Below are positions 5,439 to 29,920 of a stretch of DNA of 40,508 nt, piece after piece. Source of the DNA: Abditibacteriaceae bacterium (GTDB lineage Bacteria > Armatimonadota > Abditibacteriia > Abditibacteriales > Abditibacteriaceae); contig JANMKN010000010.1 of assembly GCA_031372065.1 (NCBI GenBank), forward strand, positions 1-40,508, in the 5' to 3' direction. The position numbers were made by a program, and so were the translations under genes. Position 1 is the first letter of the stretch, and every line of letters starts with the position of its first letter. Below the pieces are notes generated by a model. The model saw only the letters and a list, made by a program, of their open reading frames with translations. It did not search any database and had not been told where the DNA came from.

Positions 5439-5669
5439 GGGGGACGCTAATTTGTTCTGGGGGAGTGTTCCCCTTTTGTAGGGGAGTGTTCCCCTTTCGT
5501 GGGGGAGTGCTCCCCTTTTGTAGGGGAAGGCTCCCCTTTTGCGGGGGAGTGCTCCCCTTTTGCAGGGGAGTGTTCCCCTTTTGTAGGGGAACACTGCCCT
5601 TTTGTAGGGGAAGGCTCCCCTTTTCAAGGGGAACGCTAATTTTCGGCAGGGGAAGCGGTTTTTTTCAAA
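5439..5669. repeat. 21-bp tandem array A (consensus GGGGAGTGYTCCCCTTTTGYA); 8 core units plus ~3 degenerate edge units
   Basis: Core units start at 5460, 5481, 5502, 5523, 5544, 5565, 5586, 5607; each is a GGGGA-N4-TCCCC hairpin followed by a T-tract. Confidence 0.97.
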
Positions 5670-5746
5670 ATTTGGCGAAATTTTGAAAAAATTGGTGATT
5701 TTTTTCAAAAAAAGGCGGTTTTTTTGTCATTTTGGGCCTGAAAAAT

Positions 5747-5774
5747 TTGACTTTTCAAAAAAGTGATTTACAAT
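5747..5774 (+). promoter_or_regulatory. Putative sigma70 promoter of the 236-aa orphan gene
   Basis: TTGACT-N16-TACAAT; AGGAGG RBS at 5807-5812. Confidence 0.6.
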
Positions 5775-5824
5775 AGAGAGTCTCTTCCAAAAAAGAGACC
5801 ATTTTCAGGAGGTTTGTTTATTTT

Positions 5825-6535
5825 ATGCCCAAGACTGTGACTTACGATTACCTTCCCAGTGAAGAAGGGCTACGCGCAGCGTGGCTGAACACCTTCGCCG
5901 AGCGTCTGGCCGCGTATGCGACGACGCTGGGCGTCAGCAGTGCGGACGTGAATTATTTGGTCGCCATAGCCGCCGCTTACAGCTATGCGGTCTACAGCCT
6001 GACCAGCGCATTGCGCAATCTGTCCAGAGCGGTCACTCTTTTCAAAGACAACTTTGAAGGAGATCGCACACCCGACCCGTTGGCGTTTCCGGTGCTGACT
6101 TTGCCCCAACCGCCCATCGCGCCCGTCGGCGTGAATTTGCAAACCGGCGTGTTCATCTGGATTAACGATTTGGTGAACAAGATTCGCAAATCGCCCAATT
6201 ACACCGAGGCTATCGGCATTGATTTGGGCATTGTAGCATCGCCCAAGCCGCCGATTGCGCTCAAAGGCCGCATCACCAAACTCGAAGCGTTTCCCGGCAG
6301 CGAAGTGGACATTTCGTTTGTGCGTCATGGTGCCAAGATGGCTATCATCGAAAGCAAACGCGGCAACGGCGATTGGGAAGTTCTGGATAAAATCGCCGCC
6401 AGTTCGTATGAAGATAATCGCCCGCCTCTGGTCGCCGGACAACCCGAAGTGCGCATTTATCGGATTCGCCTGAGCGACGGCAAAAACGCCTTCGGTGACT
6501 ACTCCGACGAAATGAGTATCAGCACCAAGGTGTAA
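5825..6535 (+). CDS. Array-associated hypothetical protein 1 (predicted helical N-domain, Pro-rich linker, FN3/Ig-like C-domain); paralogue of 28801-29526
   Basis: Strong RBS and terminator; shared motifs DYLPS..G.RA.WLN.F, L.TG.F, NYT..IG..L.I, R.Y..R.SDG.N..G..SD. Confidence 0.88.
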   Translation: MPKTVTYDYLPSEEGLRAAWLNTFAERLAAYATTLGVSSADVNYLVAIAAAYSYAVYSLTSALRNLSRAVTLFKDNFEGDRTPDPLAFPVLTLPQPPIAPVGVNLQTGVFIWINDLVNKIRKSPNYTEAIGIDLGIVASPKPPIALKGRITKLEAFPGSEVDISFVRHGAKMAIIESKRGNGDWEVLDKIAASSYEDNRPPLVAGQPEVRIYRIRLSDGKNAFGDYSDEMSISTKV

Positions 6536-6547
6536 GGTGTAAAACAT

Positions 6548-6586
6548 AAAAAAGTCCGTCCCGAAATTTTCGGGACGGACTTTTTT
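6548..6586. terminator. Intrinsic terminator
   Basis: aaaaaagtccgtcccgaaa-t-tttcgggacggactttttt. Confidence 0.88.
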
Positions 6587-6620
6587 GTTGCGCTTTGTTC
6601 TTTGGTAGGAGACTAAAGGA

Positions 6621-6700
6621 GCGGGGCTAACGCCCTCTTCCAAACGAGTTGATCCCTCTTAGTCTGCGACTGCCCGTTTGGAAGAGGGCGTTAGCCCCGC
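6621..6700. repeat. 26-bp perfect inverted repeat (REP doublet-like)
   Basis: gcggggctaacgccctcttccaaacg (6621-6646) and its reverse complement (6675-6700). Confidence 0.9.
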
Positions 6701-6722
6701 AAATAGTTTGCGCCTCAATAAT

Positions 6723-7994
6723 TTACTTTTTCACATCGTAGCACCAAAGCGTGCCCAGTTCGCGGATGAACAAGCGGCCATTGGCGACTACGGGATAAGC
6801 CCACGCTTTGCTGCGGCCCCGTTCGGGCGGGTTGGGCGAGGCGAAACGGCCTTTTTCTTGATAACTTTCGGGCGTGGCGGCCACTAAAGCGACTTCGCCG
6901 TTTTCGCCGTGCAAATAAAGGCGATTATCGGCGTAGCAAAGCGAAGCGGCACCAACGGCTGGGTTTTCCCATTTAATCTCGCCGTTTTTAAAGTTCACGC
7001 ACAACAGCGCCGAATTGGTGGTGCCATACAGGTAATCCCCGACCAAAACCGCGCCGCCCATAGCGACAGGCATTTTGCGCGCGAAGTATTTTTCTTCGGT
7101 GGAAAATGTTTCTGGCCCACCTTTAATTTGCGCCAAGCCGCCGCCGGTTAAACCTGTCGCCGAATAAACCATATCGCCGCTCACAACCGGCGTTTGAATG
7201 CTGCCGCCGATGCGCTTATCGGCGGTTCTATCGTAAAGCCAGAGCCTTTTTCCGGTTTTGGCTTCGACGCCAACCACGCCTTTTTGCAGGAACTGAATAT
7301 ATTGCTTTACGCCGCCCATTTGCGCGATGACAATGGAAGAATAATTGGCCTCGCCCGCTTCGGGCATCGCTGATTTCCAGATTGTCTCGCCGGTTTTTTT
7401 GTTTAACGCGATCATCGTTGATTCCGCGCCGCCGGGCGTGACAATTAAAGCATCGCCATCAACCAAAGGCGATTCGGAATAAGCCCAAACGCCAACTTTG
7501 CCGCCGAAATCGGTGCGCACGTTTTTCTGCCAAATCACTTTGCCCGTTGCGTTTTCGAGGCAAGCCAAATCGCCATCCGAACCCAGCACATAAACGAAAT
7601 CGCCGTCAATGGTTGGCGTCGAACGCGCACCGGGATAGTTGGGATTCTGCTGCGGGTTGCCGACTTTGCCGATGCGCGTTGACCACACGATTTTGCCATC
7701 GGCGACATTATAAGCACGGGCGAATTCGCTGTCGTTGCCTTCGTTGCTCATCAAATAAAGTCGCGGGCCGCTGACGGCGGGGGTGCTGAAACCATAGCCA
7801 ATATCGCTACTTTGCCACAACAATTTCGGCCCGGCAGCGGGCCATTCTTGCAATAGGCCGGTTTCCTGCGAAATGCCATCGCGGTTTGGCCCGCGCCATT
7901 GCGCCCAATCATTGGCGTGAACGAGGGGCGCAAAAAACGGGGCGCCGAGCAGGGAAATTAAAACAAGAGTCTTGTGGCGATAAATGGTTTTCAT
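6723..7994 (-). CDS. Secreted PQQ-binding-like beta-propeller protein
   Basis: Signal peptide, DWAQWRGPNRDG, repeated TGK.IW motifs, WAYPVVANGRLFIR. Confidence 0.9.
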   Translation of the reverse strand: MKTIYRHKTLVLISLLGAPFFAPLVHANDWAQWRGPNRDGISQETGLLQEWPAAGPKLLWQSSDIGYGFSTPAVSGPRLYLMSNEGNDSEFARAYNVADGKIVWSTRIGKVGNPQQNPNYPGARSTPTIDGDFVYVLGSDGDLACLENATGKVIWQKNVRTDFGGKVGVWAYSESPLVDGDALIVTPGGAESTMIALNKKTGETIWKSAMPEAGEANYSSIVIAQMGGVKQYIQFLQKGVVGVEAKTGKRLWLYDRTADKRIGGSIQTPVVSGDMVYSATGLTGGGLAQIKGGPETFSTEEKYFARKMPVAMGGAVLVGDYLYGTTNSALLCVNFKNGEIKWENPAVGAASLCYADNRLYLHGENGEVALVAATPESYQEKGRFASPNPPERGRSKAWAYPVVANGRLFIRELGTLWCYDVKK

Positions 7995-8005
7995 GGTTGA
8001 AATTT

Positions 8006-9766
8006 CTATTCGGTTGCTAAAACGTGTTGGCCTGATTTTACATCGTCCACGATAATCGCAGTTGCGCCATCGGCTAATGTGAGATTGGCGCCGTCGAAAA
8101 GCGCTTTTTTCGCGTTACCGCGCGGCCATTCGAGGCGCGCTGAGGTGCCAGCCGGAATCGTAAATTCAATTTTGCCGGTGGCGCCTTTGAAATAGCTGAT
8201 GTTGACCGACCCTTTGGCGGTTGGCACTTGGCCGCGCACGCTATGCAAAGTGCCCGCTTGCGGCGCGATGAGGATTTTTTCGTAGCCCGGACTGAGCGGG
8301 CGCACACCCAAAACATAGCGAGAAATGATGTTGGCCGGTGCGCTGCCCCACGCGTGATTCCATGTTAAATTGGGCTTGTATTTGCCGTCCCACGCTTCGA
8401 GTGTCATGGTCGAACCCAGTTCCATCATGTGCCACCAACTGCGATCATGGCGAGCGGTTAGCAGTTGCAGCGCGTCTCTGTCGCGGCCCGCTTTGAACAA
8501 GGCTTCGAGCAGATATTGCGCGCCATAAACGCTGCACTCCATGCCTTTTCCGGCCACAAACGCGGCCACTTTGTCTTTTTTAGCCTCCGGCACTAAATCA
8601 AAAGCCAGCGCGAACATATTGGCGTGCAACGACGAATGATTGCTGCCTTCGCCATCGGTGTAAAGCCCGCTGGCTTCGTTGAAAAACACTTGATTAAACG
8701 CGCCGTAAACAGTTTGTGCTTTCAGGGCGAATTGATGCGCCTCATCGTCTTTGCCCGTCGCGCGTGCCAAGGTTTCCATGCTCTGCAAAGCGTGATAATA
8801 AAACGCGTTGGCGACGGTATTAATTTCCGGCCCGACTTGCTGCTTTTGATTGGGGTCGGCTTTGCCTGCGTTATAGCCATCGCGTTCTCCCGTCGGCCAA
8901 TCCACAATGGCGCCCGCTTTTATCAGGCCATCTTCGCGCGCTTTGTCCATCAGCAACTTCTTTTTCAAGGCCTCGTAATGCTGCCGCGCTAAAACGGCAT
9001 CGCCTGTTGCTTGATAGTCGGCATAAGCCATCATCGGCATATGCAAACTCCACTCTGTCGGCCATGTCGGATGCGCTAAAAGATGGCCGACGGTGTAGCG
9101 CGCCACGCGCGGGTCGAGGTCAACGGCGTAATGCGAAAGTTGGTTGATATAAGCGTCGGCTTCATAAGGAATGCGTTCGCGCTCGCCGTCAATATAAACG
9201 CCAAACGCCGTGGTCGATTTCATGGTGTGCTTGCATAAATTCCACACGGCAGTCAAAACCGTATCGTCGCATTCAAACGACGCGGCGTTATCGTTAAACG
9301 GCGCGTGAACCCAAAGCTGGCGCAGGTTGTCTTTGGACAGTTCGACGGGACAGTTTTCGATTTCGGCATAGCGAAACGGCGCGATTTCGCCGATTTCGGG
9401 CGGCGTGTGAACCGCTGCGGGATTTTTGTGGCGCTCTTTGGTGGGAATTTGCAATTGATAAAGGCGCGTGCCCGGCTGCAAAGATAATTTCACTTCGCGA
9501 TAGCTCACGCTGCCCGGCGGCTTGCGGTCAATTTGACCATCGGCCAGTTTTTCGCCTAAACGAATTGTTAAATCGGCGGCGGGCACATCATTGGCAAATT
9601 TGATTTGCAAGTTGCCATAAGCCGCTTTGCCAAAATCCGCAAAATAATAAGCGCCGCGCCTTTCAAGAAGCATCGGCGCCACGGGCGTGGTTTCCAGCGG
9701 CGGCAAATTTTCAGCAAAAACGGGCAGAGCAGACAACAAAATGAGAGGAAGAAAAACGTTTTTCAT
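8006..9766 (-). CDS. Alpha-L-rhamnosidase-like glycoside hydrolase (GH78)
   Basis: Signal peptide, DFGKAAYG, DGERERIPYEAD, EAWD, NHAWGSAP. Confidence 0.85.
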   Translation of the reverse strand: MKNVFLPLILLSALPVFAENLPPLETTPVAPMLLERRGAYYFADFGKAAYGNLQIKFANDVPAADLTIRLGEKLADGQIDRKPPGSVSYREVKLSLQPGTRLYQLQIPTKERHKNPAAVHTPPEIGEIAPFRYAEIENCPVELSKDNLRQLWVHAPFNDNAASFECDDTVLTAVWNLCKHTMKSTTAFGVYIDGERERIPYEADAYINQLSHYAVDLDPRVARYTVGHLLAHPTWPTEWSLHMPMMAYADYQATGDAVLARQHYEALKKKLLMDKAREDGLIKAGAIVDWPTGERDGYNAGKADPNQKQQVGPEINTVANAFYYHALQSMETLARATGKDDEAHQFALKAQTVYGAFNQVFFNEASGLYTDGEGSNHSSLHANMFALAFDLVPEAKKDKVAAFVAGKGMECSVYGAQYLLEALFKAGRDRDALQLLTARHDRSWWHMMELGSTMTLEAWDGKYKPNLTWNHAWGSAPANIISRYVLGVRPLSPGYEKILIAPQAGTLHSVRGQVPTAKGSVNISYFKGATGKIEFTIPAGTSARLEWPRGNAKKALFDGANLTLADGATAIIVDDVKSGQHVLATE

Positions 9767-9799
9767 GGATGTGAAATCAAGCACGCGGCACTTTATAGA

Positions 9800-10741
9800 T
9801 TATGACTGAACTGCCTTTTGGGAGTCGCGCCAGTGCAGGCGGAGTCGCTCGAAACTCCACAAGGCAGGAGTCAACAACACGGGCACTAATTCGTTGTGAA
9901 TGCGCGCTTGACCGAAATCGCCGACTAACATCATGCCCAACAAAAACGGCGGCGCGATGCAGAGCAAGCGTTTTAAGTCCGCTGGCAAAACGCGCCATGA
10001 AAGCATTGTGAGAATGATCATCCAGCCGAAAGTCAAGAGAATCCAATCTATCGAATCTTGCGGATGGCGCAAAATGCCCGTTATAAAGTTGATATTTGCC
10101 GCCAGATGTTTTTCAAAAATCTTCGCGCCGGGATTATGCTGAAAAAGTCGCGTCAGGGCCGCTTTTACGCTTAACCACAACACCAATTGCAAAAGCCCAT
10201 TGAAAATAATCCAGCGCGTCGGTTGGCGTTTCCAAGTGAGCAAAACGAATGCGAAAATCAAAAAGCAACTGGTTTCCCGATTGAGGCAAGCCAAGAAAAA
10301 CGTAAGGTAATAAAGACGCCATTGGTCGCGTTGAATGAAGGCAACGCCCAGCACGAAAAAGAAAATCGCTGGCACATCCCACGGATAACGGATGCCGCTG
10401 ACGAAAACATAGTTCCACAGCAAAGGGTAAAGCAGCACCAGTGCGTAAAAATCGGCCTTGTCGTGCAGATATTTTTGCAAATAAGCACGCCAAGCCAGCA
10501 GCAAACCGAGCGTGAAGCCAAAAGTTAGCAGCGCATAAAGGAAGGGCAGCGAAAACGGAGCAATACTGGAAAGTCCGCGTGCCAGAAGCGGCATCAATAC
10601 GCGATATTGATAAGGTGTTGCGACGCGAAATGCGGTTAAATCGGCCAGCGAAATGCCGGGTGAATTGAAAGGCGGCTGCCAGTAGAGAAGCGTGAAAAGC
10701 GCCGCGCCGAAACCGTAGAATGGCAAGGCGAAGCGACTCAT
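9800..10741 (-). CDS. Multi-pass membrane protein (possibly GT-C-like)
   Basis: Many hydrophobic segments; PYQYRVL, YPWD, LNRET motifs. Confidence 0.7.
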   Translation of the reverse strand: MSRFALPFYGFGAALFTLLYWQPPFNSPGISLADLTAFRVATPYQYRVLMPLLARGLSSIAPFSLPFLYALLTFGFTLGLLLAWRAYLQKYLHDKADFYALVLLYPLLWNYVFVSGIRYPWDVPAIFFFVLGVAFIQRDQWRLYYLTFFLACLNRETSCFLIFAFVLLTWKRQPTRWIIFNGLLQLVLWLSVKAALTRLFQHNPGAKIFEKHLAANINFITGILRHPQDSIDWILLTFGWMIILTMLSWRVLPADLKRLLCIAPPFLLGMMLVGDFGQARIHNELVPVLLTPALWSFERLRLHWRDSQKAVQS

Positions 10742-10758
10742 GATTTTAGAGTGCGAAT

Positions 10759-11781
10759 TTAATCTTCGCCCCACGGATAAAGCAAAACTTTGCCGCAGTT
10801 GCCGGTCATTTGCAGTTCCCATGCGTCGCGCACTTGCGAGAGGGCAAAGCGATGCGTGATGAATTTATCAATGGCGGCGCTTTGTTCTTTGATGACTTGC
10901 CAGATGCGCGGCGTGTCGCGCAGATTCCAGTGCCACGAGCCGTGCAATGTCAGGCCTTTGCGCAGCATATGATTGCTGACGTTTAACGTCAAATCGCCGC
11001 CTTCGCCCACAAAGGCCACTTCACCGCGTCGCCGCACGCTTTCGATGAGCAAAAGCTGTGCGGGAGCCACGCCCGTGCAATCAATCGCTTTATCGGCGCC
11101 GATGCCGCCCGTTAAAGCGTGAATTTGTTTGAGTGCATCGGGATCGTTAGGATTAATGACGGCGCGCGCGCCCAACTCATGCGCTAATTTAGCGCGATAC
11201 GGCTGCGATTCAACAGCGATAACCCGCGCGCCGCGATGCACACCGTTAATCACGCCACCTAAACCAACTGGCCCCATGCCGGTGATAACAACCGTGTCGA
11301 ATGCATCCACGCGCAAGCGCTGCATGGCGCCAAAAGTGGGGCCAAGGCCGCAACAAGCCATGCTGGCGTGTTCAAAAGAAATATCCGGCGGAATGTGCAA
11401 AAGCAACCAATCGGGCTTCAAAAGATACTGCGCGTAAGTGGCCGTGCCGCATTCGCTTTTAGTTTCGTGTTGCAGATTGCGCCCGTGCTGGCAATGAATA
11501 TAATCGCCCGTCACGCACAATTCGCAATAACCGCAGGCGAACTGGGGCATAACGACCACACGATCACCAATTTTGACGTTGGTCGCCTTGTCCACAAAAG
11601 CGACTTCGCCCGCCGCCTCGTGGCCGAGCGATTCGGTTTTGTGGCCCGGTGCATACATTTTGTATTCGGTGCAAGCGGGCGCGACCAAAATTTTTACCAC
11701 GACAATATCGCCGTGTGGTTGCGGATCGGGTTTTTCGATGAGTTCGACTTGTTTTTCGCCAGTGATGGCCGCGATTTTCAT
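10759..11781 (-). CDS. Zinc-dependent medium-chain dehydrogenase
   Basis: GHEAAG, CGYCELC..G...HC structural Zn site, GMGPVG. Confidence 0.93.
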   Translation of the reverse strand: MKIAAITGEKQVELIEKPDPQPHGDIVVVKILVAPACTEYKMYAPGHKTESLGHEAAGEVAFVDKATNVKIGDRVVVMPQFACGYCELCVTGDYIHCQHGRNLQHETKSECGTATYAQYLLKPDWLLLHIPPDISFEHASMACCGLGPTFGAMQRLRVDAFDTVVITGMGPVGLGGVINGVHRGARVIAVESQPYRAKLAHELGARAVINPNDPDALKQIHALTGGIGADKAIDCTGVAPAQLLLIESVRRRGEVAFVGEGGDLTLNVSNHMLRKGLTLHGSWHWNLRDTPRIWQVIKEQSAAIDKFITHRFALSQVRDAWELQMTGNCGKVLLYPWGED

Positions 11782-11887
11782 GTAACTGCACGCGCCTTTG
11801 TTTTCTATTCCCGCTGTGAGCCTGTTGGAGTGCGTTCAACGTTTTTTCAACGGGAAGGTTCTGGATTTAACGCATTTTAAATGCGTT

Positions 11888-13945: not shown

Positions 13946-13998
13946 GGGTTAAATCATATAATAGTCAATGAATAGGAGATTGACGGCGAGGTAAAGCC

Positions 13999-14118
13999 TC
14001 ATCCCAACGTCGCGGCGTCGTTCCATTCTGCTTTGCAGGACTTGCCGTCTCGCAAAGCGCGAAATTGTTTGGTGTTTTCGTTCCACTGAGCCGTGGCTAT
14101 TGGGGACAAGTGAATCCG
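13999..14118 (-). pseudogene. Possible remnant of the C-terminus of an array-associated gene
   Basis: Start-less frame ending KQFRALRDGKSCKAEWNDAATLG* resembles the C-termini of the two paralogues; lies downstream of array B. Confidence 0.3.
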
Positions 14119-14193
14119 TGACCGTTAGAATCAACTATTTGGCTTCCTTTTTTGGTAATTGGGCGAGCATTTTAAAACGCCTTGCCTTATGCA

Positions 14194-14487
14194 AAAAACA
14201 GCTTCAACCGACCCAAAAACAAGTCCGACTGGTCTAAAAACAAGTCCGACCAGCCTAAAAACAGCTTCGACCAATTCAAAAACAACTCCGACTGATCCAA
14301 AAACAACTTCGACCAATTGAAAAACAGGTTCGACCGGACGAAAAACAAGACTTCCCAGACGCAAAACAGGTTTTACCGACTGAAAAACAGGTTCGACCAG
14401 TTCAAAAACAAACTTTACCGCTCGAAAAACAGCCGGTGAGACGGCGAAAACAACGCGTGAGACGCAAAAAACAGCCATTTTAGGTCT
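14194..14487. repeat. 21-bp tandem array B (AAAAACA-N5-GAC-N6), ~14 units
   Basis: AAAACA recurs every 21 bp from 14194 to 14467 with no indel. Confidence 0.96.
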
Positions 14488-14496
14488 TTTGCGCAG

Positions 14497-19127: not shown

Positions 19128-19160
19128 AAAAAGCCCCTGAAAGATTTTCGGGGGCTTTTT
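19128..19160. terminator. Bidirectional intrinsic terminator
   Basis: aaaaagcccctgaaa-gat-tttcgggggcttttt. Confidence 0.85.
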
Positions 19161-19215: not shown

Positions 19216-19923
19216 TCACGGTAACTCGGTAACTGGCGTTTGCGCGTCGTCTTTTTTCGGTTCGGGCTCTTTGCGCGGGTCGAAGCCGTAATTATGCAGC
19301 AACGGGTCTTGGTCGCGTTTGGGCAATCCGTAACTCAAATAATGCCAGATGCGGCTGAGAATATCTTCGGCGGCGAGCAGTTTTTGTTTGCGCAACTCTA
19401 CTAAATCGGAGCGCGAACCCACCGAAGACAGCAGTTCGTTGTCGCTCAGGCGCTTTTTGAGGGGAGTAATCTGCGTAATCCAATCGGCGGGCAAAACGGC
19501 AGCGGCGTTGTGATTGGGGTTGTTTACATCGGCAAAATCGGCGCTGGTGGCGATGAATTGCCCCAAAAACCTGCGCACGCGACTTTGATCGAATTCGCCC
19601 AAATTGCCGCTTTCAAAGCCATAGGCCACCAAAAGCGGCAAGCTGTTTCCGGTCAGCGACAAACCTTTAATCCGATTGTAAACGGCGTGAATCATCGTTT
19701 CAGCGACGGGATAATCCACTTTCAACTGGTCGCTGGCGGTGCGCCGATTGCCTTCGCTGAGGGGAATATCTTCGTTGGCGGCGACTAAATCGTCGAAAGT
19801 ATCCTGCACCTCGGCACGAAATTCGGTGGTGAATTTCCATCTTTTGCCGGTTTCGACCTGAAAATCGGCCTCTAAACACTGTTCTAATTGGTCTGTAACC
19901 TCAGAAATACTGCTGTTTGGCAT
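19216..19923 (-). CDS. Array-associated hypothetical protein 2 (235 aa, helical, internally duplicated)
   Basis: ATG 19923 preceded by TTTTCAGGAGG, the same string as before 5825; the two halves end PLLVAYGF and PLLHNYGF. Confidence 0.85.
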   Translation of the reverse strand: MPNSSISEVTDQLEQCLEADFQVETGKRWKFTTEFRAEVQDTFDDLVAANEDIPLSEGNRRTASDQLKVDYPVAETMIHAVYNRIKGLSLTGNSLPLLVAYGFESGNLGEFDQSRVRRFLGQFIATSADFADVNNPNHNAAAVLPADWITQITPLKKRLSDNELLSSVGSRSDLVELRKQKLLAAEDILSRIWHYLSYGLPKRDQDPLLHNYGFDPRKEPEPKKDDAQTPVTELP

Positions 19924-20007
19924 AAGAGCCTCCTGAAAAACAAGAATTACGGCCCAAGACAGGCCGGAAATGGTCAAAGATTGATAAGAAAAATTAATGC
20001 AAGCTCT

Positions 20008-20275
20008 CTCCCCTATAAGGGGAGGTCTCAACCGAAATCGGTTTGCGCCTCCCCGTATAGGGGGAAAGGCTAACCGAAATCGTTTTGCACTTCCCCCTAT
20101 ACGGGGAAGTCTCAACCGAAACTGTTTTGTGCTTCCCCCTATAAGGGGAGGCTTCAACCGATTCCGTTTGGTCTTCCCCTTATAGGGGGAAGCTCTAACC
20201 GAAACTGTTTTGCGCCTCCCCTTATAGGGGGAAGTCTCAACCGGAATCGTTTTGTGCCTGCCCCGACACGGGAAA
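20008..20275. repeat. 42-bp (2x21) tandem array C, ~6.5 units alternating CCCC-N5-GGGG and AACCG-N4-GKTT palindromes
   Basis: AACCG anchor at 20030, 20072, 20114, 20156, 20197, 20239. Confidence 0.96.
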
Positions 20276-20540
20276 CAGTAAAAACACAGCGGCGGGACTT
20301 TCAAAAGCTATTTTAACGCCCTAAAATACGCTTTGGCAAGCCCAAAACCGCAGTTTTTTCACAAAAATTATGAGTGTTCGCAGTTTACGTAGTCGGATAC
20401 GGTTTTCAGGCGTTTATGACGCCTATGTATTTTCGACTATTTTAAGCATGAAAAAGCGGTTTTATGCTGCCCATTTGCGGGTGAATAACGTTGTTTGGGC
20501 TGCGGCGCGAGGCTTGGCTGCGTGTGTCATACTTTCTGAA

Positions 20541-20912
20541 ATGAATGGCACAGTCCGATGGCGTGGCTATGTCCGCGTCAAGAACAAAAATAAGGCACTC
20601 GAACGCTTCAACACGATGCGAAAGCTCATTGGCAAAGAAGCCAACTTGGTTTCATGTGAACAATACTGGAAAACTAAAGAGCTTTATGAAATTGTGTTTA
20701 CTACTGATTGGTCTTGCGATACAGTAGAGAAGGCGGTGTTCGAGGTTTTGATACTCAGCCAAAAGTTACAAATTGATTGGGATCTGAGTGGCCCCCACGT
20801 TTATCAAAATGGTGTCGTTCAAATCGAAGGATTATTCAATAGCAGTGGTCAATCTACAAAAATCCCGAACCTTGAGTGGATGCTGTATCAGCTACACATC
20901 GAAATTGGTTAG
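20541..20912 (+). CDS. Hypothetical 123-aa protein, AT-rich, cassette-like
   Basis: ATG 20541 follows the motif shared with the GrpB upstream region and CATACT-N7; codon usage differs from neighbours. Confidence 0.7.
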   Translation: MNGTVRWRGYVRVKNKNKALERFNTMRKLIGKEANLVSCEQYWKTKELYEIVFTTDWSCDTVEKAVFEVLILSQKLQIDWDLSGPHVYQNGVVQIEGLFNSSGQSTKIPNLEWMLYQLHIEIG

Positions 20913-20990
20913 CGAAAGTTGACCAACCGCGATAGAACAAGAGACTATGTTAGCAGGCAGTCCCTTTAGCGACTATTCTGAGTTTGAAAT

Positions 20991-21026
20991 AAAAAGCGCG
21001 TTTCTCAAGTGAGAAGCGCGCTTTTT
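20991..21026. terminator. Intrinsic terminator, inverted copy of 4714-4748
   Basis: aaaaagcgcgtttctca-ag-tgagaagcgcgcttttt. Confidence 0.8.
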
Positions 21027-21128
21027 GGTGCGGGTTCGACGCGCTTTGCCGTCCAAAAACCATTGGCGCGGTTAAAAAGTGTCGCGATTCCTGCCAAACT
21101 GAGGGCACTCCAAGAGGAAACGGAAACC

Positions 21129-22298: not shown

Positions 22299-22313
22299 AG
22301 CACAAGACACAGG

Positions 22314-22514
22314 ATGAGAAATCAAGGGCGCAAAGACAACGGTTTTTCTGACATTGCTTACTTCGTTTGGGGTGGATTCTTTGCAGGATTTATCTCTATG
22401 TTGGCGCTGGTATATTTACGTGTTCCGCATCCGGCGTTTGACATTATCTCAGTCATCGCTTGGTTGCTTGGTGGATTTGCAGGGCACGCTTTGCATTCGA
22501 AGAAGCAATTGTAA
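22314..22514 (+). CDS. Small two-TM hypothetical protein
   Basis: 66-aa ORF with two hydrophobic helices filling the gap. Confidence 0.55.
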   Translation: MRNQGRKDNGFSDIAYFVWGGFFAGFISMLALVYLRVPHPAFDIISVIAWLLGGFAGHALHSKKQL

Positions 22515-22546
22515 TCACAATCTGTGTGCTGTCGAAACAGTGAAAA

Positions 22547-24361: not shown

Positions 24362-24474
24362 TAGTAATACCTTGTTGGTGTAGATTTTTGAAAGAAAAAA
24401 ATGAAAGACGCTTTTATCTTATCAAATCGAGAAGCACCTGAACGATTGGGGTAACCTAAAAATAAGGAGACACC

Positions 24475-25299
24475 ATGAATCCACAATCACCATTTGACAT
24501 GAATCAACCAACGCGCATGACGGGTGGCGCGCCGCCGCAGGCTTCCGGCGGCATTCACATTGACGATGACGGACGCGGGCAGGGCAGCGGCTTTAGTTAT
24601 CAAATCTCGCATGGGCCATCGTTTGCTTTAGCCATTTTTCAATTGGCTGCCGGACAAAGCATTCAAGCCGAAGCGGGCGCGATGGTTTCGATGTCGGGCA
24701 ACATAGATTTGCAATCGCAAATGAAAGGCGGCTTGATGGGCGCCTTGAAGCGCGCTGTCGGCGGCGAAAGCGCGTTTGTGTCCACTTTTACGGCGCAAGG
24801 TGCGCCGGGCGAATTAACGCTGGCTCCCGGCGCTCCCGGCGATATTGCCGCCATCGAAATGCGCAATCAGGCGTTTTTTGTGCAGTCCAGCAGCTATTTG
24901 GCGGGCGATGCCGGTTTGCAAATTGATACGCGCTGGGGCGGCGCGAAATCGTTTTTCGGTGGCGAAGGCTTATTCGTTTTGCAAGTCATGGGCACCGGTT
25001 TATTGATGGTTTCCAGTTTCGGCGCGATTTATCGCAAAAGACTGGAACCCGGCGAGCGTTATGTGGTGGACACCGGCCATTTAGTCGCGTGGGAAGGCTC
25101 AATGCAATATCAATTGCGCAAAGCAGCGCAGGGCTGGTTGCGTTCGATCACATCGGGCGAAGGCATCGTCGCCGATTTCATGGGGCCGGGCGAACTGCTC
25201 ATTCAAACGCGCAATTTAGCCGCGTTTGCGGGCCTGATGAAGCCCTTTTTTCCCAGCCAGAGTTCGGGCGGCAGCGGTTTGAACTTCGGCGGCGATTGA
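24475..25299 (+). CDS. TIGR00266/AIM24 family protein
   Basis: AEAGAMVSMS, GGES.F, GGEGLF, VDTGHLVAW, SGEG, QTRN; AAGGAG RBS. Confidence 0.93.
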   Translation: MNPQSPFDMNQPTRMTGGAPPQASGGIHIDDDGRGQGSGFSYQISHGPSFALAIFQLAAGQSIQAEAGAMVSMSGNIDLQSQMKGGLMGALKRAVGGESAFVSTFTAQGAPGELTLAPGAPGDIAAIEMRNQAFFVQSSSYLAGDAGLQIDTRWGGAKSFFGGEGLFVLQVMGTGLLMVSSFGAIYRKRLEPGERYVVDTGHLVAWEGSMQYQLRKAAQGWLRSITSGEGIVADFMGPGELLIQTRNLAAFAGLMKPFFPSQSSGGSGLNFGGD

Positions 25300-25301
25300 C
25301 T

Positions 25302-26063
25302 TTAAAACTCGACTACCAAGCCGTCGCGTGCCGAAATCGCATTGGGGCAAATTTCGAGCAAATCAGAAAACAAAGAATCGTCTTCGAGAGGTTCGTGTTC
25401 GGTGAGCGGGTTAAAATGCGTCAGCGCGATATTTTTCACTTTGGCTTCACGCACCACTTGAAGCACTTGCTCGGAAGTGCAATGGCCCGACGCGGCGGCA
25501 ATTTCGTGCAAGCTATCGCTGAAATTGCGTTCATGCACTAATAAATCTACGCCGCGCACGAAGTCAATATAACGTCCGTCGCCTGCGGTGTCGGTGACAT
25601 AAGCCAGTGATTTTTCCGGCCAGTCGAAGCGATATGCCAACGAGCCGCCGGGGTGCGTCAGCAAAAAGGATGACACCTGCGCGCCGCAGATAGTAAGCGG
25701 CTTATCCGGTTCGACAGTGACCGTTGGATGCCCGAAGGGGAGCGGAAACAAAGGCGAATCGAATAAATCGTTTTGCACGACATCCAAAGTGGCGGCATCG
25801 GCGTAAAGTGTGACTTTGGTTTGGGTGTTCCAGAGCAGATTTAACAAATAGGTCAGGCCGCTCACATGGTCAAGATGGGCGTGCGAGAGAACAATATGCA
25901 AATGTTTGGGCAAAGGGCGGCCAATCAGTCGAAACAGACCCGTTCCCGCGTCCAACACAATGGCGCAGTCAGGCGCATTGGGAACGGAGGTTACATAGGA
26001 GCAACTGGTATGGCGATGCAAGTTGGGATGATAACCTGCTGTGCCGAGAAATTCGATTTGCAT
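25302..26063 (-). CDS. MBL-fold hydrolase (RNase Z/BN-like)
   Basis: FLGTAG, DAGTG, SHAHLDH, TDT, HE, THF. Confidence 0.9.
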   Translation of the reverse strand: MQIEFLGTAGYHPNLHRHTSCSYVTSVPNAPDCAIVLDAGTGLFRLIGRPLPKHLHIVLSHAHLDHVSGLTYLLNLLWNTQTKVTLYADAATLDVVQNDLFDSPLFPLPFGHPTVTVEPDKPLTICGAQVSSFLLTHPGGSLAYRFDWPEKSLAYVTDTAGDGRYIDFVRGVDLLVHERNFSDSLHEIAAASGHCTSEQVLQVVREAKVKNIALTHFNPLTEHEPLEDDSLFSDLLEICPNAISARDGLVVEF

Positions 26064-26137
26064 AAAGTTGAAACGACGCTAACTTCACGTTTTTGGCCTA
26101 CGACAAAACAAGAACAAATAGAGTTGTGCCCTTCATT

Positions 26138-26959
26138 TTAAGTAACGGCTTCGGCGCGCGCAATCGCCTCATCAATTCCCTCATCGGGTTCGCCTAAATA
26201 AGCGGCGATGACTTGCGGATTGTTTTGCACTTTATGCGGCACATCGTCGGCGATTTTTACGCCGCCATCCAGCACAATGACGCGCTCGCAAATGCCCATC
26301 ACGACGCTCATATGGTGTTCAATTAAAAGCACTGTCAAACCGAACTGCTCACGCACTAAACGAATAGTTTTGGTGACTTCGTTGGTTTCCGAGGGGTTCA
26401 TGCCCGAAGTTGGCTCATCCAGCAGCAATAATTTCGGGTTGGTTGCCATCGCGCGGGCGATTTCCAGTTTGCGTTGCTCGCCATAGGCTAAATTGCGCGC
26501 TAAAGTTTCGCTGCGCCGTTGCAATCCAAAGATTTCTAATAATTGCGCGGTTTCGTCTTTTATCCACGCTTCCTGGCGCGCTTGTTTGGCATCGCGCAAA
26601 AGTGCCGACAGCAAACCATAACCGGCGCGGCCCGCGAACGCGCAACGCACATTGTCTTCGACAGATAAATCGCCAAACAAGCGGATGTTTTGAAAAGTGC
26701 GCGCCACACCGCGCCGCGTTAATTGATGCGGCTTGAGCGATTTTCCCGCGCTGGCGACGCGTTTTTCGTCAATCCAAATTTCACCCGCCGTAGGCGCATA
26801 AACGCCGGTGATTAAGTTGAAAACCGTGGTTTTTCCGGCGCCGTTTGGCCCGATAATGGCCGCCATTTGCCCTTCGGGAAGCGCGAAAGACAGCGGCGAC
26901 ACTGCCGTTAAGCCACCAAAGCGAATTGAGGCTTCTTTGAATTCGAGAACATTGCTCAT
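26138..26959 (-). CDS. livG: Branched-chain amino acid ABC transporter ATP-binding protein
   Basis: FGGLTAV, GPNGAGKTT, RTFQNIRLF, LAYGEQR, LLDEP, IEH, AYLG. Confidence 0.9.
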   Translation of the reverse strand: MSNVLEFKEASIRFGGLTAVSPLSFALPEGQMAAIIGPNGAGKTTVFNLITGVYAPTAGEIWIDEKRVASAGKSLKPHQLTRRGVARTFQNIRLFGDLSVEDNVRCAFAGRAGYGLLSALLRDAKQARQEAWIKDETAQLLEIFGLQRRSETLARNLAYGEQRKLEIARAMATNPKLLLLDEPTSGMNPSETNEVTKTIRLVREQFGLTVLLIEHHMSVVMGICERVIVLDGGVKIADDVPHKVQNNPQVIAAYLGEPDEGIDEAIARAEAVT

Positions 26960-27020
26960 CAGCGCCTTTGATTATAGCAAGGCGCCTGATGTTATCAAAT
27001 TTCACCGGAACAATTCCGAC

Positions 27021-27085
27021 TTTTAAATCTTAGGATTGCCCTATTGCGGCTCCGACACGCAATAGGGCAATCCTAAGATTTAAAA
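27021..27085. repeat. 28-bp perfect inverted repeat overlapping a stop codon
   Basis: ttttaaatcttaggattgccctattgcg, 9-nt loop, exact reverse complement. Confidence 0.92.
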
Positions 27086-28540
27086 CGTCCAGCCTTTACG
27101 ATAATCGCGTTTGAGGTAGTCGTTGATTTTCGCGATGTTCGTGCATTTATTGCCGTCCCATTCGACGGTGTTGCCTTTGCCCGCTTTGATGCCGAGCACG
27201 CCGAGCAAAGTCAGTTCGGTCAGCGGCGCGGCGACTTCGAAATTGGAACAAGGTTTGTGCGACGGGTCGCGCACGCCGCGCAAAAAGTCGTCGGGATGAC
27301 TGCCTTTGATGCGCTCGAACTTTGCTGTGGGCACGGGCGTGGCTTTGAACAATTCTTCGGGCAAAATGCGCACGCCGCCGCCGTAAAAGCCGGTATACAT
27401 CATGCCTTTGTCGCCGACATAAAGTGTGGCGTTGCCCTCGAAGCGGTCGGCGCCATATTTCTTTTCCATCTCCACCAAAATCGGCGGCTTGACGCGCGCG
27501 GCAGGCGAGGCGCTATCGAAAAAAGCGCCCGGTTCATTGCTTTCGACGCCGCGTTTTTTGCCGTCATACCACCAGACTTTTACCGGCGCCAAATCGCCGC
27601 GTTGCGGATAATCCCAGCGAATGACCGAGCTAAAAGGAAAGCGCTCATCGGTGCCGCCATAGTTGTCTTCGAGCGTGATTTTGCACGGCCCGTTTAAATT
27701 CAAAGCCCAATGCGCGCCGTCCATAATGTGGCAACCTCTGTTGCCCAAAGCGCCGCCGCCGTAAGAGTGCCAGCCGTGCCATTCGTGCGGATGCAATTCT
27801 TTCGTCACTACTTTGCCGTCCGGCTTTTTATAAACGTAATCGGGATGATAATCCAGAAACGGCGCCGGGCCAATCCATGCATCCCAATTCAATCCATTGG
27901 GCGGCGGCGTTGCTGCCGGGCGCGGCCCCACGCCGCCGTTGACGGCATCGCACCAGTGATAAACCTCGGTCACGTTGCCGATGGCGCCCGCTTGAATATA
28001 TTCGACCAAACGCCGATAACCTTCGCCCGAATGCCCCTGATTGCCCATTTGCGTGGCGACTTTGTATTTTTTGGCGGCTTCGGCCAGCATTCGCGCTTCG
28101 GCAATATCGTAGGACATCGGTTTTTCGACGTAAATACCCATGCCGTTTTCCATCGCCAGCATGGAAACCAGCGCGTGATGATGATTGGGCGTGGCGGTGA
28201 AAACAGCGTCCACTTGCCCTTTCATGGCCTCGAAAAACTTGCGATAATCCGCGAAAGTCTTGATTTCGTCGGGGTTTTGCCCTTCTTTTTTGGCGCGAGC
28301 CAAGGCGTTTTGCAGATTCTTGGGGTCGGGTTCGACCAGCGCCACGATTTTCTCTTTGGCCGCCGAAGGAATGTGAAAACTTTCTCCGCGCCCGCCGCAG
28401 CCGATAATCGCGCAACGCAGCTTTTTGTCCGGCTCCGCCGCGATGATGTAAGGCGCATTGAAAACCCGCGCGCCCGACAGCGCCGCTGCCCCAAAAGCCG
28501 CGCCTTTAATTAAATGCCGCCGACTGATTTTTTCGTTCAT
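27080..28540 (-). CDS. Tat-exported Gfo/Idh/MocA family oxidoreductase
   Basis: SRRHLIK Tat signal, IGCGGRG, ATPNHHH, YVEKP, TQMGNQ; GGAG RBS. Confidence 0.93.
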   Translation of the reverse strand: MNEKISRRHLIKGAAFGAAALSGARVFNAPYIIAAEPDKKLRCAIIGCGGRGESFHIPSAAKEKIVALVEPDPKNLQNALARAKKEGQNPDEIKTFADYRKFFEAMKGQVDAVFTATPNHHHALVSMLAMENGMGIYVEKPMSYDIAEARMLAEAAKKYKVATQMGNQGHSGEGYRRLVEYIQAGAIGNVTEVYHWCDAVNGGVGPRPAATPPPNGLNWDAWIGPAPFLDYHPDYVYKKPDGKVVTKELHPHEWHGWHSYGGGALGNRGCHIMDGAHWALNLNGPCKITLEDNYGGTDERFPFSSVIRWDYPQRGDLAPVKVWWYDGKKRGVESNEPGAFFDSASPAARVKPPILVEMEKKYGADRFEGNATLYVGDKGMMYTGFYGGGVRILPEELFKATPVPTAKFERIKGSHPDDFLRGVRDPSHKPCSNFEVAAPLTELTLLGVLGIKAGKGNTVEWDGNKCTNIAKINDYLKRDYRKGWTF

Positions 28541-28602
28541 GCTTTCTCCTGAATGCTTTTTGCGATTGTTCTTTGATGCTTCGCGGCGCCATTTGAGGCG
28601 TA

Positions 28603-28641
28603 AAAAAAGCAGATTCAAAGCGAGCCTTGAATCTGCTTTTT
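28603..28641. terminator. Intrinsic terminator
   Basis: aaaaagcagattcaa...ttgaatctgcttttt. Confidence 0.8.
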
Positions 28642-28673
28642 GCGTGAAAGACCTTACTGCCTATCTCGTCCTG

Positions 28674-28787
28674 TCCCGCCCGTAAACAAGCGGGCTGAGG
28701 TAAAAACCCCGTGAACGGGGCTAATTACGCCATTTTTAGACCCGTTTACGGGTCTTTTGCCCTCAGCCCAGCGCTTCAGCGGTGGGT
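28674..28787. repeat. Four-hairpin REP cluster related to the MITE interior but lacking TIRs
   Basis: Same order of four palindromes as in 32855-33017. Confidence 0.8.
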
Positions 28788-28800
28788 ATGGTAAGGCCTT

Positions 28801-29526
28801 CTAAGCCTGTGTCGAAACCGCGAAAATATCGCTCCACTGGCCGATTTCGTTGATGCCGTCGGAGTAGCGGAATTGATATTCGCGCGAATCGGCGCGGCCC
28901 GGATTGGCGTTCGGCGTGGTGTCCGTCCATTTGCTGGTGACGATGGTATACGATTTTTCCCACTCGCTCGCGCCGTTGCGGCGCATATGGCCTACAATCA
29001 AGCGATAGTGACCCATCACCAGCGTAAATGTCACCGCGCCGCCGGGCAACGTCACCGGCGTTTTGCCGCGCGGTTTGGCATCGTCGGGCGGCGGTGGCGG
29101 CGTCGCGGGCACTTCGATTTTCAAGGTGGTGCCGATTTGCTTGGTGTAGTTTTTGTGGCGCTTGATGTCGCCGACCAACTCGACCATATAATTGAAAATG
29201 CCCGTCGAAAGCGGCGAAGCGCCGACGGGTGGCGTGGGCGGCGCGGAGATGGTCGGATAGGACGGATAAACAAACGTGTTAGGCGTGCTATCGGTATCCA
29301 CTTCGTCCACTAACGCCGAGAGATTGTTCCAGTAAATATGCGCCGTCGGCTCGGCGGTGTATACCAGATAATTGCAAACCGCCGCGTAATAAGTCACGGT
29401 CGCGATGGTGTTGCTGGTGAGTTCCAGCGGAGTTTGAAACTGCGGAACGTTGATGGAAAAGTCATTGAGCCAACCGGCTCGTGCCCCGCGTCCGCTGGGC
29501 AAATAATCGGGTCTAATCAAAGACAT
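28801..29526 (-). CDS. Array-associated hypothetical protein 3 (241 aa); paralogue of 5825-6535
   Basis: Collinear motifs with 5825-6535 over the full length; GGGGAGAGG RBS. Confidence 0.88.
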   Translation of the reverse strand: MSLIRPDYLPSGRGARAGWLNDFSINVPQFQTPLELTSNTIATVTYYAAVCNYLVYTAEPTAHIYWNNLSALVDEVDTDSTPNTFVYPSYPTISAPPTPPVGASPLSTGIFNYMVELVGDIKRHKNYTKQIGTTLKIEVPATPPPPPDDAKPRGKTPVTLPGGAVTFTLVMGHYRLIVGHMRRNGASEWEKSYTIVTSKWTDTTPNANPGRADSREYQFRYSDGINEIGQWSDIFAVSTQA

Positions 29527-29579
29527 AGTAAACCTCTCCCCAAATTGTATTTGACGTGCCGAAACACGCCTGCAACAAA

Positions 29580-29607
29580 TATTTATGCATTAAAGATTCT
29601 TTGTCAA
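29580..29607 (-). promoter_or_regulatory. Putative sigma70 promoter
   Basis: TTGACA (29607-29602), 16 nt, then TAAATA; lies between array D and the gene. Confidence 0.45.
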
Positions 29608-29655
29608 GCGTCGCCCGCGCGAAAACCTTGCGCCCGTAAGCGCCGCGCTATGCTT

Positions 29656-29920
29656 CCCGTAGCCGGAGTTTGGGTTAAAACGCGCGGAGTTTTACTCATA
29701 ACGCGCCGTGTTATGGTTAAAACTCGCGGAGTTCTGACTATAACGGGCGGTGTTTTGGTTGTAACGGGCAGTGTTTTAATTAAAACGCGCGGAGTTTTGG
29801 TTAAAACTCCGCGAGTTATGGTTGTAACGCGCAGAGTTTTGATTAGAACGCTGGAAATCCAACCATAACGCGCCGCGTTTCATCCAAAACACCGCCCGCT
29901 ACACCCAAAACGCGCCGCCC
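29656..29920. repeat. 21-bp tandem array D (AAAACGCGCGGAGTTTTGGTT), 8 core units plus degenerate edges
   Basis: Units at 29677, 29698, 29719, 29740, 29761, 29782, 29803, 29824; each has an AAC-N7-GTT palindrome. Confidence 0.96.

What the first reader, a model, noticed from the sequence alone, without database searches (positions are those of the whole stretch)
5439..29920. Recurrent module: 21-bp-period array upstream of a ~240-aa orphan gene (three intact loci)
Seen: three loci share one layout of tandem array, a ~85-160 bp gap, a strong RBS, a 235-241 aa gene and a terminator or hairpin. They are array A + 5825-6535 (+), array C + 19923-19216 (-) and array D + 29526-28801 (-). Promoter-like boxes are visible in the gap at A and D. 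Proteins at A and D are full-length paralogues (DYLPS..G.RA.WLN.F; NYT..IG..L.I; R.Y..R.SDG.N..G..SD), yet their array units are unrelated (GGGGAGTGTTCCCCTTTTGTA vs AAAACGCGCGGAGTTTTGGTT). Genes at A and C share TTTTCAGGAGG at the RBS. Period, palindromic units and position are conserved; unit sequence is not. Inference: an array-plus-protein system that I cannot match to a described one. The array could be a phased binding platform for its cognate protein, a source of hairpin RNAs, or a cis-regulator.
Basis: partly seen in the sequence, partly recalled or inferred. Interest (0 to 1): 0.9.

Follow-up and report, generated by a model that had tools for sequence, protein, structure and literature searches.

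The report
Phased DNA arrays matching partner proteins
This bacterium carries about 300 short DNA arrays repeating every two (or four) helical turns, 64 of them beside small uncharacterised helical-protein genes and the rest as gene-less copies, and the symmetry of each array tracks the architecture of its neighbouring protein, so each protein likely coats its own array in a DNA-binding system that appears to be undescribed.

Summary
The window has five arrays: A, C, D with a gene, B and E without. The genome has 305 non-coding arrays of period 20-21 or 41-42 bp; 64 sit beside genes of an orphan helical(+Fn3) superfamily (80 genes), 241 are gene-less. They are not coding and show no RNA-hairpin signal. 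New here: (1) a symmetry rule. One-module proteins (A, D; predicted antiparallel homodimer) go with palindromic 21-bp units; two-module proteins go with non-palindromic 21-bp or palindromic 42-bp units (C). The palindromy contrast repeats in other genomes. (2) 40 of 64 gene-linked arrays have gene-less sisters that mostly stop at the array edge, are not promoter-biased, and are missing at 4 of 4 orthologous sites in a congener. Best reading: each protein binds its cognate double-stranded array, two modules per 21 bp, and the array spreads on its own. Binding is inferred, not shown; the proteins are neutral to acidic and many relatives lack a detectable array. The scan noted the array-plus-gene layout before in other phyla; ten paper searches found no description.

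The parts
5439..5650 (+). Array A: ten 21-bp units, palindromic core GGGGA-N4-TCCCC; four gene-less sister arrays elsewhere in the genome
   Evidence: (palindromy z 4.6)
5655..5725 (+). Phased A/T-tract block between array A and the promoter
   Evidence: (period 20, 3.5 copies)
5747..5774 (+). sigma70-like boxes TTGACT / TACAAT of gene A (by eye)
   Evidence: sequence; conserved in paralogue C271
5825..6535 (+). Gene A (P0001, 236 aa): one helical module (1-140) plus Fn3 domain (143-236); predicted homodimer
6548..6586 (.). Bidirectional terminator-like hairpin after gene A
   Evidence: sequence
14194..14476 (.). Array B: gene-less, about 13 non-palindromic 21-bp units
   Evidence: z -0.1
19128..19160 (.). 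Terminator-like hairpin shared by gene C and the convergent gene
   Evidence: sequence
19216..19923 (-). Gene C (P0002, 235 aa): all-helical, two tandem ~105-aa modules, no Fn3
   Evidence: halves 80.7%; 95.0%, E 4e-8
20009..20264 (-). Array C: six 41/42-bp units, two alternating palindromes; unit shared with arrays of the two closest paralogues (C34, C404)
   Evidence: z 6.4
28801..29526 (-). Gene D (P0003, 241 aa): paralogue of gene A
29580..29607 (-). Promoter-like boxes of gene D (TTGACA clear, -10 weaker; by eye)
   Evidence: sequence
29664..29851 (-). Array D: nine to ten palindromic 21-bp units; one gene-less sister (C230)
   Evidence: z 3.0
40189..40399 (-). Array E: gene-less, ten non-palindromic 21-bp units, related to the array of a two-module+Fn3 gene on contig C46
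   Evidence: E 2e-10; z 0.7

Best explanation
Each array is non-coding DNA with a two-turn period that likely serves as a docking strip for the protein encoded next to it, which is predicted to lay two helical modules on every 21 bp, and the array has been copied alone to many other sites. SHOWN: the arrays are real, non-coding and tied to the gene families; period class and palindromy follow protein architecture; gene-less sisters exist, mostly stop at the array edge and are lineage-specific. PREDICTED: the one-module protein A is an antiparallel homodimer through its long helix. INFERRED: a homodimer reads a palindromic 21-mer; a fused two-module protein (pseudo-dimer) reads an asymmetric 21-mer head-to-tail, or pairs up on a palindromic 42-mer; successive units sit on one DNA face and form a cooperative lattice about 200 bp long; the lattice beside the -35 box tunes the gene's own expression and gene-less copies titrate the protein. 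I take the whole to be a semi-selfish, fast-diversifying array-protein element that bloomed in this lineage, moved by host or unlinked enzymes because the protein shows no catalytic fold.
For: Association: 8 of 8 testable P0001-family genes; 30 of 47 homologue loci elsewhere upstream, 0 of 52 downstream. Architecture: P0002 halves align (95%); F310, F325, F322, F234 halves 95.5/97.3/96.7/85.6%, F242 92.7%; F310 = F210 plus one module (98.9%), and F210 arrays are 21-bp (6 of 6) while F310 arrays are 41/42-bp (9 of 9). Symmetry in G000: palindromy z>2 in 18 of 26 one-module arrays, 4 of 21 two-module 21-bp arrays, 15 of 16 two-module 42-bp arrays (p 2e-4); per family 7 versus 8, p 0.002, and 7 versus 5 confirmed two-module families, p 0.018. 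Other genomes: 13 of 28 versus 1 of 12 (medians 1.9 versus -0.3, p 6.5e-4); all 3 arrays found at P0002 relatives are 42-bp. Homodimer score 0.76, best of 3 controls 0.08, runs agree in at least 73% of contacts, pLDDT at least 85; the mark was reached by 20 of 30 solved homodimers and 1 of 23 single chains; contacts 55-74, 59-70, 63-63 mean antiparallel helices, about 75 A by my arithmetic versus 71 A for 21 bp. Conserved K/R on the helices. Sisters: 237 array pairs share 6 or more 11-mers versus 0-1 in permutations; 3 of 241 gene-less arrays have a gene remnant; empty sites in G003 at 4 of 4 informative loci. Density 52 per Mb versus 0-5.5 in five sampled relatives. Genes are under purifying selection (dN<dS in 8 of 8 pairs).
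Against: No binding was shown and no protein-DNA model could be run. Proteins are neutral to acidic (P0001 family -1 to -5, P0002 family mostly -8 to -11, F310 to -19). Exceptions to the rule: 4 of 30 arrays at one-module P0001 homologues are true 42-bp; 2 of 4 F325 arrays are palindromic 21-mers; 2 of 4 external 42-bp arrays at P0002/F232 relatives are not palindromic. The two-module call for F238, F232, F221 and S241 rests on length; the repeat was not detected. Many relatives lack an array at my threshold: 6 of 9 (P0002 family), 11 of 16 (F242), 10 of 18 (F322/325, after dropping one poly-A artefact), 4 of 5 (F158). The 87%-identical paralogue C271 has an array sharing 0 11-mers with A, so specificity would have to shift fast (helical part differs at 27 of 142 residues, Fn3 at 4 of 94, but this bias holds only in the three P0001-family pairs of 8). 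168 of 241 gene-less arrays have no gene-linked sister in the assembly. Shared ancestry of array and gene could produce part of the symmetry correlation; kin are not independent.
Confidence: 0.6

Rival explanations
1. The arrays are upstream platforms (enhancer/operator strips or bent DNA) for a host or unlinked regulator that controls these genes; the encoded proteins do something else, and gene-less arrays are regulon sites.
For: Arrays end close to sigma70-like boxes (strict pattern in 13 of 57 family gaps versus 32 of 1598 controls); a phased A-tract block lies in gap A; the genome has an RpoN; earlier scan notes read similar arrays as sigma54 enhancers.
Against: About 150 unrelated unit families would need as many regulators; unit symmetry follows the neighbouring protein; 5 F158 genes and one P0002 paralogue carry the array just after the stop; gene-less arrays occupy 8.5% of convergent versus 5.0% of divergent gaps (p 0.03) and are randomly oriented. 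I did not scan for sigma54 boxes systematically.
Confidence: 0.12
2. DNA-antitoxin / sentinel: the array sequesters a growth-inhibitory helical protein, which is freed when the DNA is lost or degraded (for example by a phage); gene-less arrays are orphan immunity sinks. This shares the binding step with the best explanation.
For: Patchy, lineage-specific bloom and fast diversification; gene-less sinks outnumber genes; position and orientation appear not to matter.
Against: No PADLOC hit for 13 family proteins; no recognisable effector domain; many relatives carry the gene without a detectable array.
Confidence: 0.12
3. The arrays are transcribed into hairpin or guide-like RNAs that the protein binds.
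For: 135 of 305 arrays have palindromic units; arrays after a stop codon would be co-transcribed; a TTGCCA-N18-TAAAAT site at 20339-20310 points into array C; summed |GT-AC| over unoriented arrays is 245 versus 185 +/- 14, though units of one array are not independent.
Against: Most gene-linked arrays lie upstream of the promoter-like boxes; oriented G-T versus A-C 84 versus 69 upstream (p 0.26) and 10 versus 19 downstream; over half of the arrays are not palindromic; no variable spacers; period equals two B-DNA turns; no Rfam match.
Confidence: 0.08
4. The arrays encode heptad-repeat peptides.
For: Open frames cross several arrays; open frames 2.8 of 6 versus 2.15 in a column-permutation null and best-frame synonymous share 0.48 versus 0.45.
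Against: No codon-phase bias of unit differences (0.436 versus null 0.445, n 223); stop triplets 3905 versus 3986 +/- 43 under a dinucleotide null; 49 of 305 arrays have period 20 or 41, and 41 and 42 alternate within one family.
Confidence: 0.03
5. Functionless minisatellites inside MITE-like elements that happen to travel with these genes.
For: Gene-less copies behave like insertions; BrickBuilt and PgRS of Porphyromonas carry 23- and 41-nt tandem repeats (PMC4596501).
Against: No shared ends: flank homology in 51 of 370 sister pairs, direct repeats of 10 bp or more in 8 of 204 versus 1 of 204 controls; a fixed period across unrelated units and phyla and the symmetry rule imply selection.
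Confidence: 0.05

Closest known systems
StbA-stbS of plasmid R388 (NTPase-free segregation; bioRxiv 10.1101/2022.04.29.490116, passages read)
   Same: Helically phased repeat array upstream of the gene; the product binds it cooperatively as one dimer per two 11-bp units (22 bp) on one DNA face; autoregulation; further sites elsewhere; no ATPase partner.
   Different: StbA uses an HTH, is plasmid-borne and has one unit sequence; here no HTH-type match, chromosomal, about 80 paralogues with unrelated units, arrays up- or downstream, hundreds of gene-less copies.
ParABS / ParMRC centromere-binding systems (PMC11127044, first part read; ParR-parC as mentioned)
   Same: Tandem sites bound by a protein encoded next door.
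   Different: No NTPase gene beside A, C or D; no ParB/RHH Pfam or fold match; no match in plasmid records.
BrickBuilt and PgRS/464 minisatellite MITEs of Porphyromonas gingivalis (PMC4596501, abstract and section 7 part 1 read)
   Same: Intergenic, multi-copy tandem arrays (23 and 41 nt) without spacers.
   Different: Those have leader/tail segments and IS5-type terminal inverted repeats and one unit per family; here copies end at the array edge, about 150 unit families exist and each is tied to a protein type.
REP/REPIN with RAYT transposase (recalled, no call)
   Same: A gene with cognate flanking repeats plus many gene-less copies between genes, often convergent ones.
   Different: RAYT is a HUH nuclease; these proteins show no catalytic fold; REPs are hairpins, not two-turn phased tandem arrays.
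CRISPR and TIGR arrays (recalled, no call)
   Same: Repeat array next to a protein gene.
   Different: No unique spacers, no nuclease or Nop domain, no RNA signature.

Membership tests
Plasmid-type partition system (ParABS/ParMRC) | Tandem centromere-like array beside the binding-protein gene | tested here: met
Plasmid-type partition system (ParABS/ParMRC) | Adjacent NTPase gene | tested here: not met
   genes A, C, D are single, each with its own RBS and terminator-like hairpin; neighbours are unrelated
StbA-type single-protein segregation | HTH DNA-binding domain | tested here: inconclusive
   no Pfam hit; fold searches give Fn3 for P0001 143-236 and only generic bundles (best Z 8.0, rmsd 2.8, 90 aligned) for P0002; the P0001 helical part was not searched alone
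StbA-type single-protein segregation | Plasmid location | tested here: not met
   40.5-kb contig with gltX, dcd and metabolic genes; no tblastn match in 72,556 plasmid records
StbA-type single-protein segregation | Cooperative binding of the product to the array; stabilisation of the replicon | not testable with these tools
   needs EMSA and stability assay
MITE with internal minisatellite (BrickBuilt type) | Conserved leader/tail with terminal inverted repeats | tested here: not met
   homology of 67 sisters mostly ends at the array edge, ragged otherwise
MITE with internal minisatellite (BrickBuilt type) | Target-site duplication | tested here: inconclusive
   direct repeats of 10 bp or more in 8 of 204 flanks versus 1 of 204 controls; short duplications were not tested
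MITE with internal minisatellite (BrickBuilt type) | Empty orthologous sites | tested here: met
   4 of 4 informative sites in G003 lack the array; 2 further sites were not syntenic
CRISPR/TIGR-like RNA-guided array | Constant repeats with unique spacers | tested here: not met
   units are degenerate copies over their whole length; no Rfam match
CRISPR/TIGR-like RNA-guided array | Array transcribed and processed | not testable with these tools
   no RNA run available
Fn3 (PF00041) fold, C-terminal domain of P0001 | Seven-strand Fn3 sandwich | tested here: met
   seven strands in 149-233; Z 12.1, rmsd 2.1, 87 aligned to 6rpx_A; PF00041 over cut-off in related F210 member, not in P0001 itself
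DUF6261 (PF19775) | Pfam match | tested here: not met
   no hit in 19 family proteins; only a 0.88 Atlas neighbour with 41% of members carrying it, a lead
Known anti-phage systems (PADLOC 2.0) | Match to a defence-protein model | tested here: not met
   0 of 13 family proteins at E 0.001

The most novel reading that the evidence does not exclude
A new class of DNA-protein element: a superfamily of long-helix modules reads DNA in 21-bp steps with freely evolving specificity, each member polymerising on its own array; the coated array is the unit that is protected and re-inserted around the chromosome, so arrays spread selfishly and link distant loci or titrate their protein. One genome holds about 80 such readers and about 150 unit families, a natural code book for an undescribed, modular DNA-recognition fold.
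Probability: 0.35. Interest if true: 0.92.

Novelty: categorically new. Interest (0 to 1): 0.8.

Why it matters
Arrays plus genes make up roughly 2% of this genome and the P0001 profile alone finds 2168 cluster representatives at E 1e-10 (some are Fn3-only matches), with loci in Verrucomicrobiota, Armatimonadota, Acidobacteriota, Myxococcota-type and Ignavibacteria records, yet no family name or paper was found. If the proteins read their arrays, this is a new sequence-specific DNA-binding fold with dozens of natural protein-site pairs in a single genome, directly testable by cognate/non-cognate binding matrices and potentially useful as orthogonal DNA-labelling or scaffolding parts. It would also explain a widespread, strictly two-turn-phased class of bacterial minisatellites and how they spread.

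Tried and rejected
Coding (heptad peptide) and RNA-hairpin readings: tested and rejected as main explanation. Whole-module duplication followed by gene decay as the origin of gene-less arrays: disfavoured (3 of 241 with remnants; sisters closer to A than the array of the 87%-identical paralogue) but not excluded. Regulon reading: disfavoured. Pfam, PADLOC, Rfam, plasmid and phage searches gave nothing; no relative in viral contigs. Fold searches found no specific match for the P0002 model; that absence does not show a new fold. Ku was not found in the genome (93.9% complete), so Ku-type end joining is not an obvious insertion route. Sequencing runs: no RNA holder listed; four DNA contig sets from one study gave no informative excision or copy-number signal. 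Internal repeats were not detected in F238, F232, F221, S241 (shallow alignments). F310 and F238 had no relative in 200 sampled genomes of the phylum and the F310 homologue search returned only 3 proteins. Two of six empty-site tests were uninformative. Rows dropped before counts: array C188:897 (a REP-like repeat), locus L178 (poly-A), L248 (same match as L247), 16 arrays inside strong genes. Paper searches returned nothing; others returned nothing relevant (listings only). Gene calls are from my own hexamer-model script, which missed at least the ORF at 4824-5321.

Full report
OBSERVATION. The three loci are as described, with small corrections. A (5439-5650) and D (29664-29851) are 21-bp arrays before paralogous 236/241-aa genes; C (20009-20264) is a true 41/42-bp array before a 235-aa gene with no pairwise similarity to A. 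Two more 21-bp arrays in the window, B and E, have no such gene.

GENOME-WIDE PICTURE. Of 426 tandem arrays of 60 bp or more in the 6.14-Mb assembly, 354 have a period of 20-22, 41-43, 62-64 or 84; after filtering and merging 321 remain (median 171 bp), 305 outside strong genes. Best periods are 21 (129), 42 (125, many harmonics of 21), 41 (33), 20 (16), other (2); 61 are true 42-type. Clustering neighbours and iterating in the genome gave 80 orphan genes in 17 groups; 63 of 80 have a periodic signal on one side, 57 of 74 testable upstream, against 188 of 4053 other genes. The groups were partly picked by adjacency, so the clean figures are the homology-defined P0001 family (8 of 8 testable) and P0002 family (4 of 6 upstream, 1 downstream). 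64 arrays are gene-linked and 241 gene-less. In the 158-aa family (5 of 7) and one P0002 paralogue the array starts 5-115 bp after the stop codon. Upstream arrays end before the promoter-like boxes (strict pattern 13 of 57 versus 32 of 1598 controls).

NOT CODING, NOT EVIDENTLY RNA. Differences between units show no codon-phase bias (0.436 versus 0.445); a small excess of best-frame synonymy (0.48 versus 0.45) and open frames (2.8 versus 2.15) appeared against a crude null, but stop triplets are barely depleted under a dinucleotide null (3905 versus 3986 +/- 43) and 49 arrays have periods 20 or 41. Stem mismatches oriented to the gene are not biased to G-U (84 versus 69, p 0.26). No Rfam match.

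PROTEINS. P0001 folds with pLDDT 91 into helices 14-35, 39-79, 109-122, 128-134 and an Fn3 domain. P0002 (pLDDT 81.5) is all-helical and its halves are homologous (80.7%; 95.0% with 18 sequences). Halves also align in F310, F325, F322, F234 and F242; F310 is F210 plus one extra module. That one-module families (P0001, F210, S220, F158, F126, F121, S122) and two-module families use the same module is inferred from helix pattern and partial profile links, not shown for all. P0001 is predicted to be a homodimer (0.76, best control 0.08; agreement at least 73%, pLDDT at least 85; mark reached by 20 of 30 solved dimers and 1 of 23 single chains; own alignment used, so counts hold roughly) with antiparallel long helices centred near residue 64; about 50 residues x 1.5 A gives about 75 A, near the 71 A of 21 bp (my arithmetic). 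K/R positions are conserved on the helices, including equivalent arginines in both P0002 modules (R60/R171), but net charges are neutral to acidic. Paralogue pairs have dN<dS in 8 of 8; the helical part diverges faster than Fn3 in the three P0001-family pairs only. No signal of known families.

SYMMETRY RULE. I predicted, before computing it, that a homodimer should go with palindromic 21-mers and a fused pseudo-dimer with asymmetric 21-mers or palindromic 42-mers. In G000: none of 26 one-module arrays is true-42 and 18 are palindromic (z>2); of 37 two-module arrays 21 are 20/21-type (4 palindromic) and 16 are 41/42-type (15 palindromic). Family medians separate (p 0.002; confirmed families only p 0.018). 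Outside G000 (analysed in 99, 104): 21-type arrays are palindromic in 13 of 28 one-module versus 1 of 12 two-module cases (p 6.5e-4); P0002 relatives with an array have period 42 in 3 of 3. Against: 4 of 30 P0001-homologue arrays are true-42, 2 F325 arrays are palindromic, many relatives have no array at my threshold (6 of 9, 11 of 16, 10 of 18, 4 of 5), many external loci are close kin, and four families were classed by length.

GENE-LESS SISTERS. Arrays fall in 149 unit clusters; 40 of 64 gene-linked arrays have a gene-less sister and 73 of 241 gene-less arrays cluster with a gene-linked one (237 links versus 0-1 by chance). A has four sisters, D one, and E relates to a C46 module. For 67 alignable sisters, homology mostly ends at or near the array edge and reaches the gene in 2; 3 of 241 have a gene remnant within 800 bp; orientation to neighbours is mixed (++18, --16, +-13, -+7). 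They occupy 42 of 492 convergent, 25 of 496 divergent and 121 of 2934 co-directional gaps. In the congener G003, 4 of 4 informative orthologous sites lack the array; at one, a 21-bp gap is 264 bp in G000 and nearly all the extra DNA is array; gain in G000 is the simpler reading but direction is not proven with two genomes. No general flanking duplication. Density is 52 per Mb here versus 5.5 (G003, 362 kb sampled), 5.0 (G012, 200 kb) and 0 (G046, G145, 200 kb each; G084, 103 kb), and the gene families are patchy (P0001 family in 14 of 151 genomes): a joint lineage-specific bloom.

MECHANISM. The simplest account of a fixed two-turn period across unrelated units, of symmetry tracking protein architecture, and of indifference to side and orientation is direct binding of double-stranded arrays by their partner proteins, two modules per 21 bp, in a cooperative strip (0.6). 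Autoregulation and titration by sisters follow by position (inferred). How arrays move is open; one testable idea is that the coated strip is the nuclease-protected piece that gets re-inserted, which would explain edges at the array boundary. A sequestered-toxin/sentinel role shares the binding step (0.12).

COMPARISON AND NOVELTY. It works most like StbA-stbS of R388 (one dimer per 22 bp, autoregulation; passages read) but fails membership (chromosomal, no HTH match, diversified). It resembles BrickBuilt MITEs only in being intergenic tandem arrays (abstract and section 7 part 1 read). Ten paper searches found no description; subscription journals and supplements were not seen. REP/RAYT, CRISPR and TIGR comparisons are recalled.

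VERDICT. Real, genome-scale, apparently undescribed; categorically new as far as I could search; interest 0.8, limited by the lack of binding or expression data.

Noticed in passing
window 29926-32843 (-): Gene pair directly upstream of array D: a 285-aa nucleotidyl-cyclase-like ORF (motif read by eye) and a 676-aa P-loop NTPase with 42-aa TPR repeats (126-bp period); looks like a conflict/defence-type pair. PADLOC gives only TPR and a weak PDC-M71B hit.
   Followed up: partly
window 20304-19216 (-): An open frame runs from a TTG at 20304 through array C in frame into gene C, behind a TTGCCA-N18-TAAAAT site at 20339-20310; the paralogue C404 also has a long upstream open frame (363 aa stop to stop). 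Probably chance, but a longer isoform or a transcribed array C is not excluded.
   Followed up: no
window 6615-6700, 36-121, 39900-40000, 40450-40508, 32853-33019: Several families of REP-like palindromic intergenic repeats with tens of copies in this genome and in G003; often beside modules and arrays.
   Followed up: no
L274 (G003:C207:40290-40945): At the site where G000 has an A-type gene-less array, G003 has a small inserted ORF bracketed by a direct repeat of about 54 bp that duplicates the upstream gene's 3' end; similar to the direct-repeat-bracketed cassette noted earlier in this genome.
   Followed up: partly
L266 (G000:C230:6150-6920): The gene-less sister of array D is bracketed by a 19-bp direct repeat and sits inside remnants of another 21-bp-period array, suggesting nested insertion.
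   Followed up: partly
proteins P0008, P0011, P0013, P0014, P0025: Some P0001 homologues carry a 35-45-aa N-terminal extension with a (W/F/Y)D..G..(W/Y)D..G..(W/Y)D motif.
   Followed up: no
window 39860-40190: A/T-rich stretch between dcd and array E with a 96-aa ORF of unclear status; no family-gene remnant found by tblastn.
   Followed up: partly
G000:C34:5948-6742, C351:49953-50659: Two family genes appear frameshifted near the 3' end or middle.
   Followed up: no
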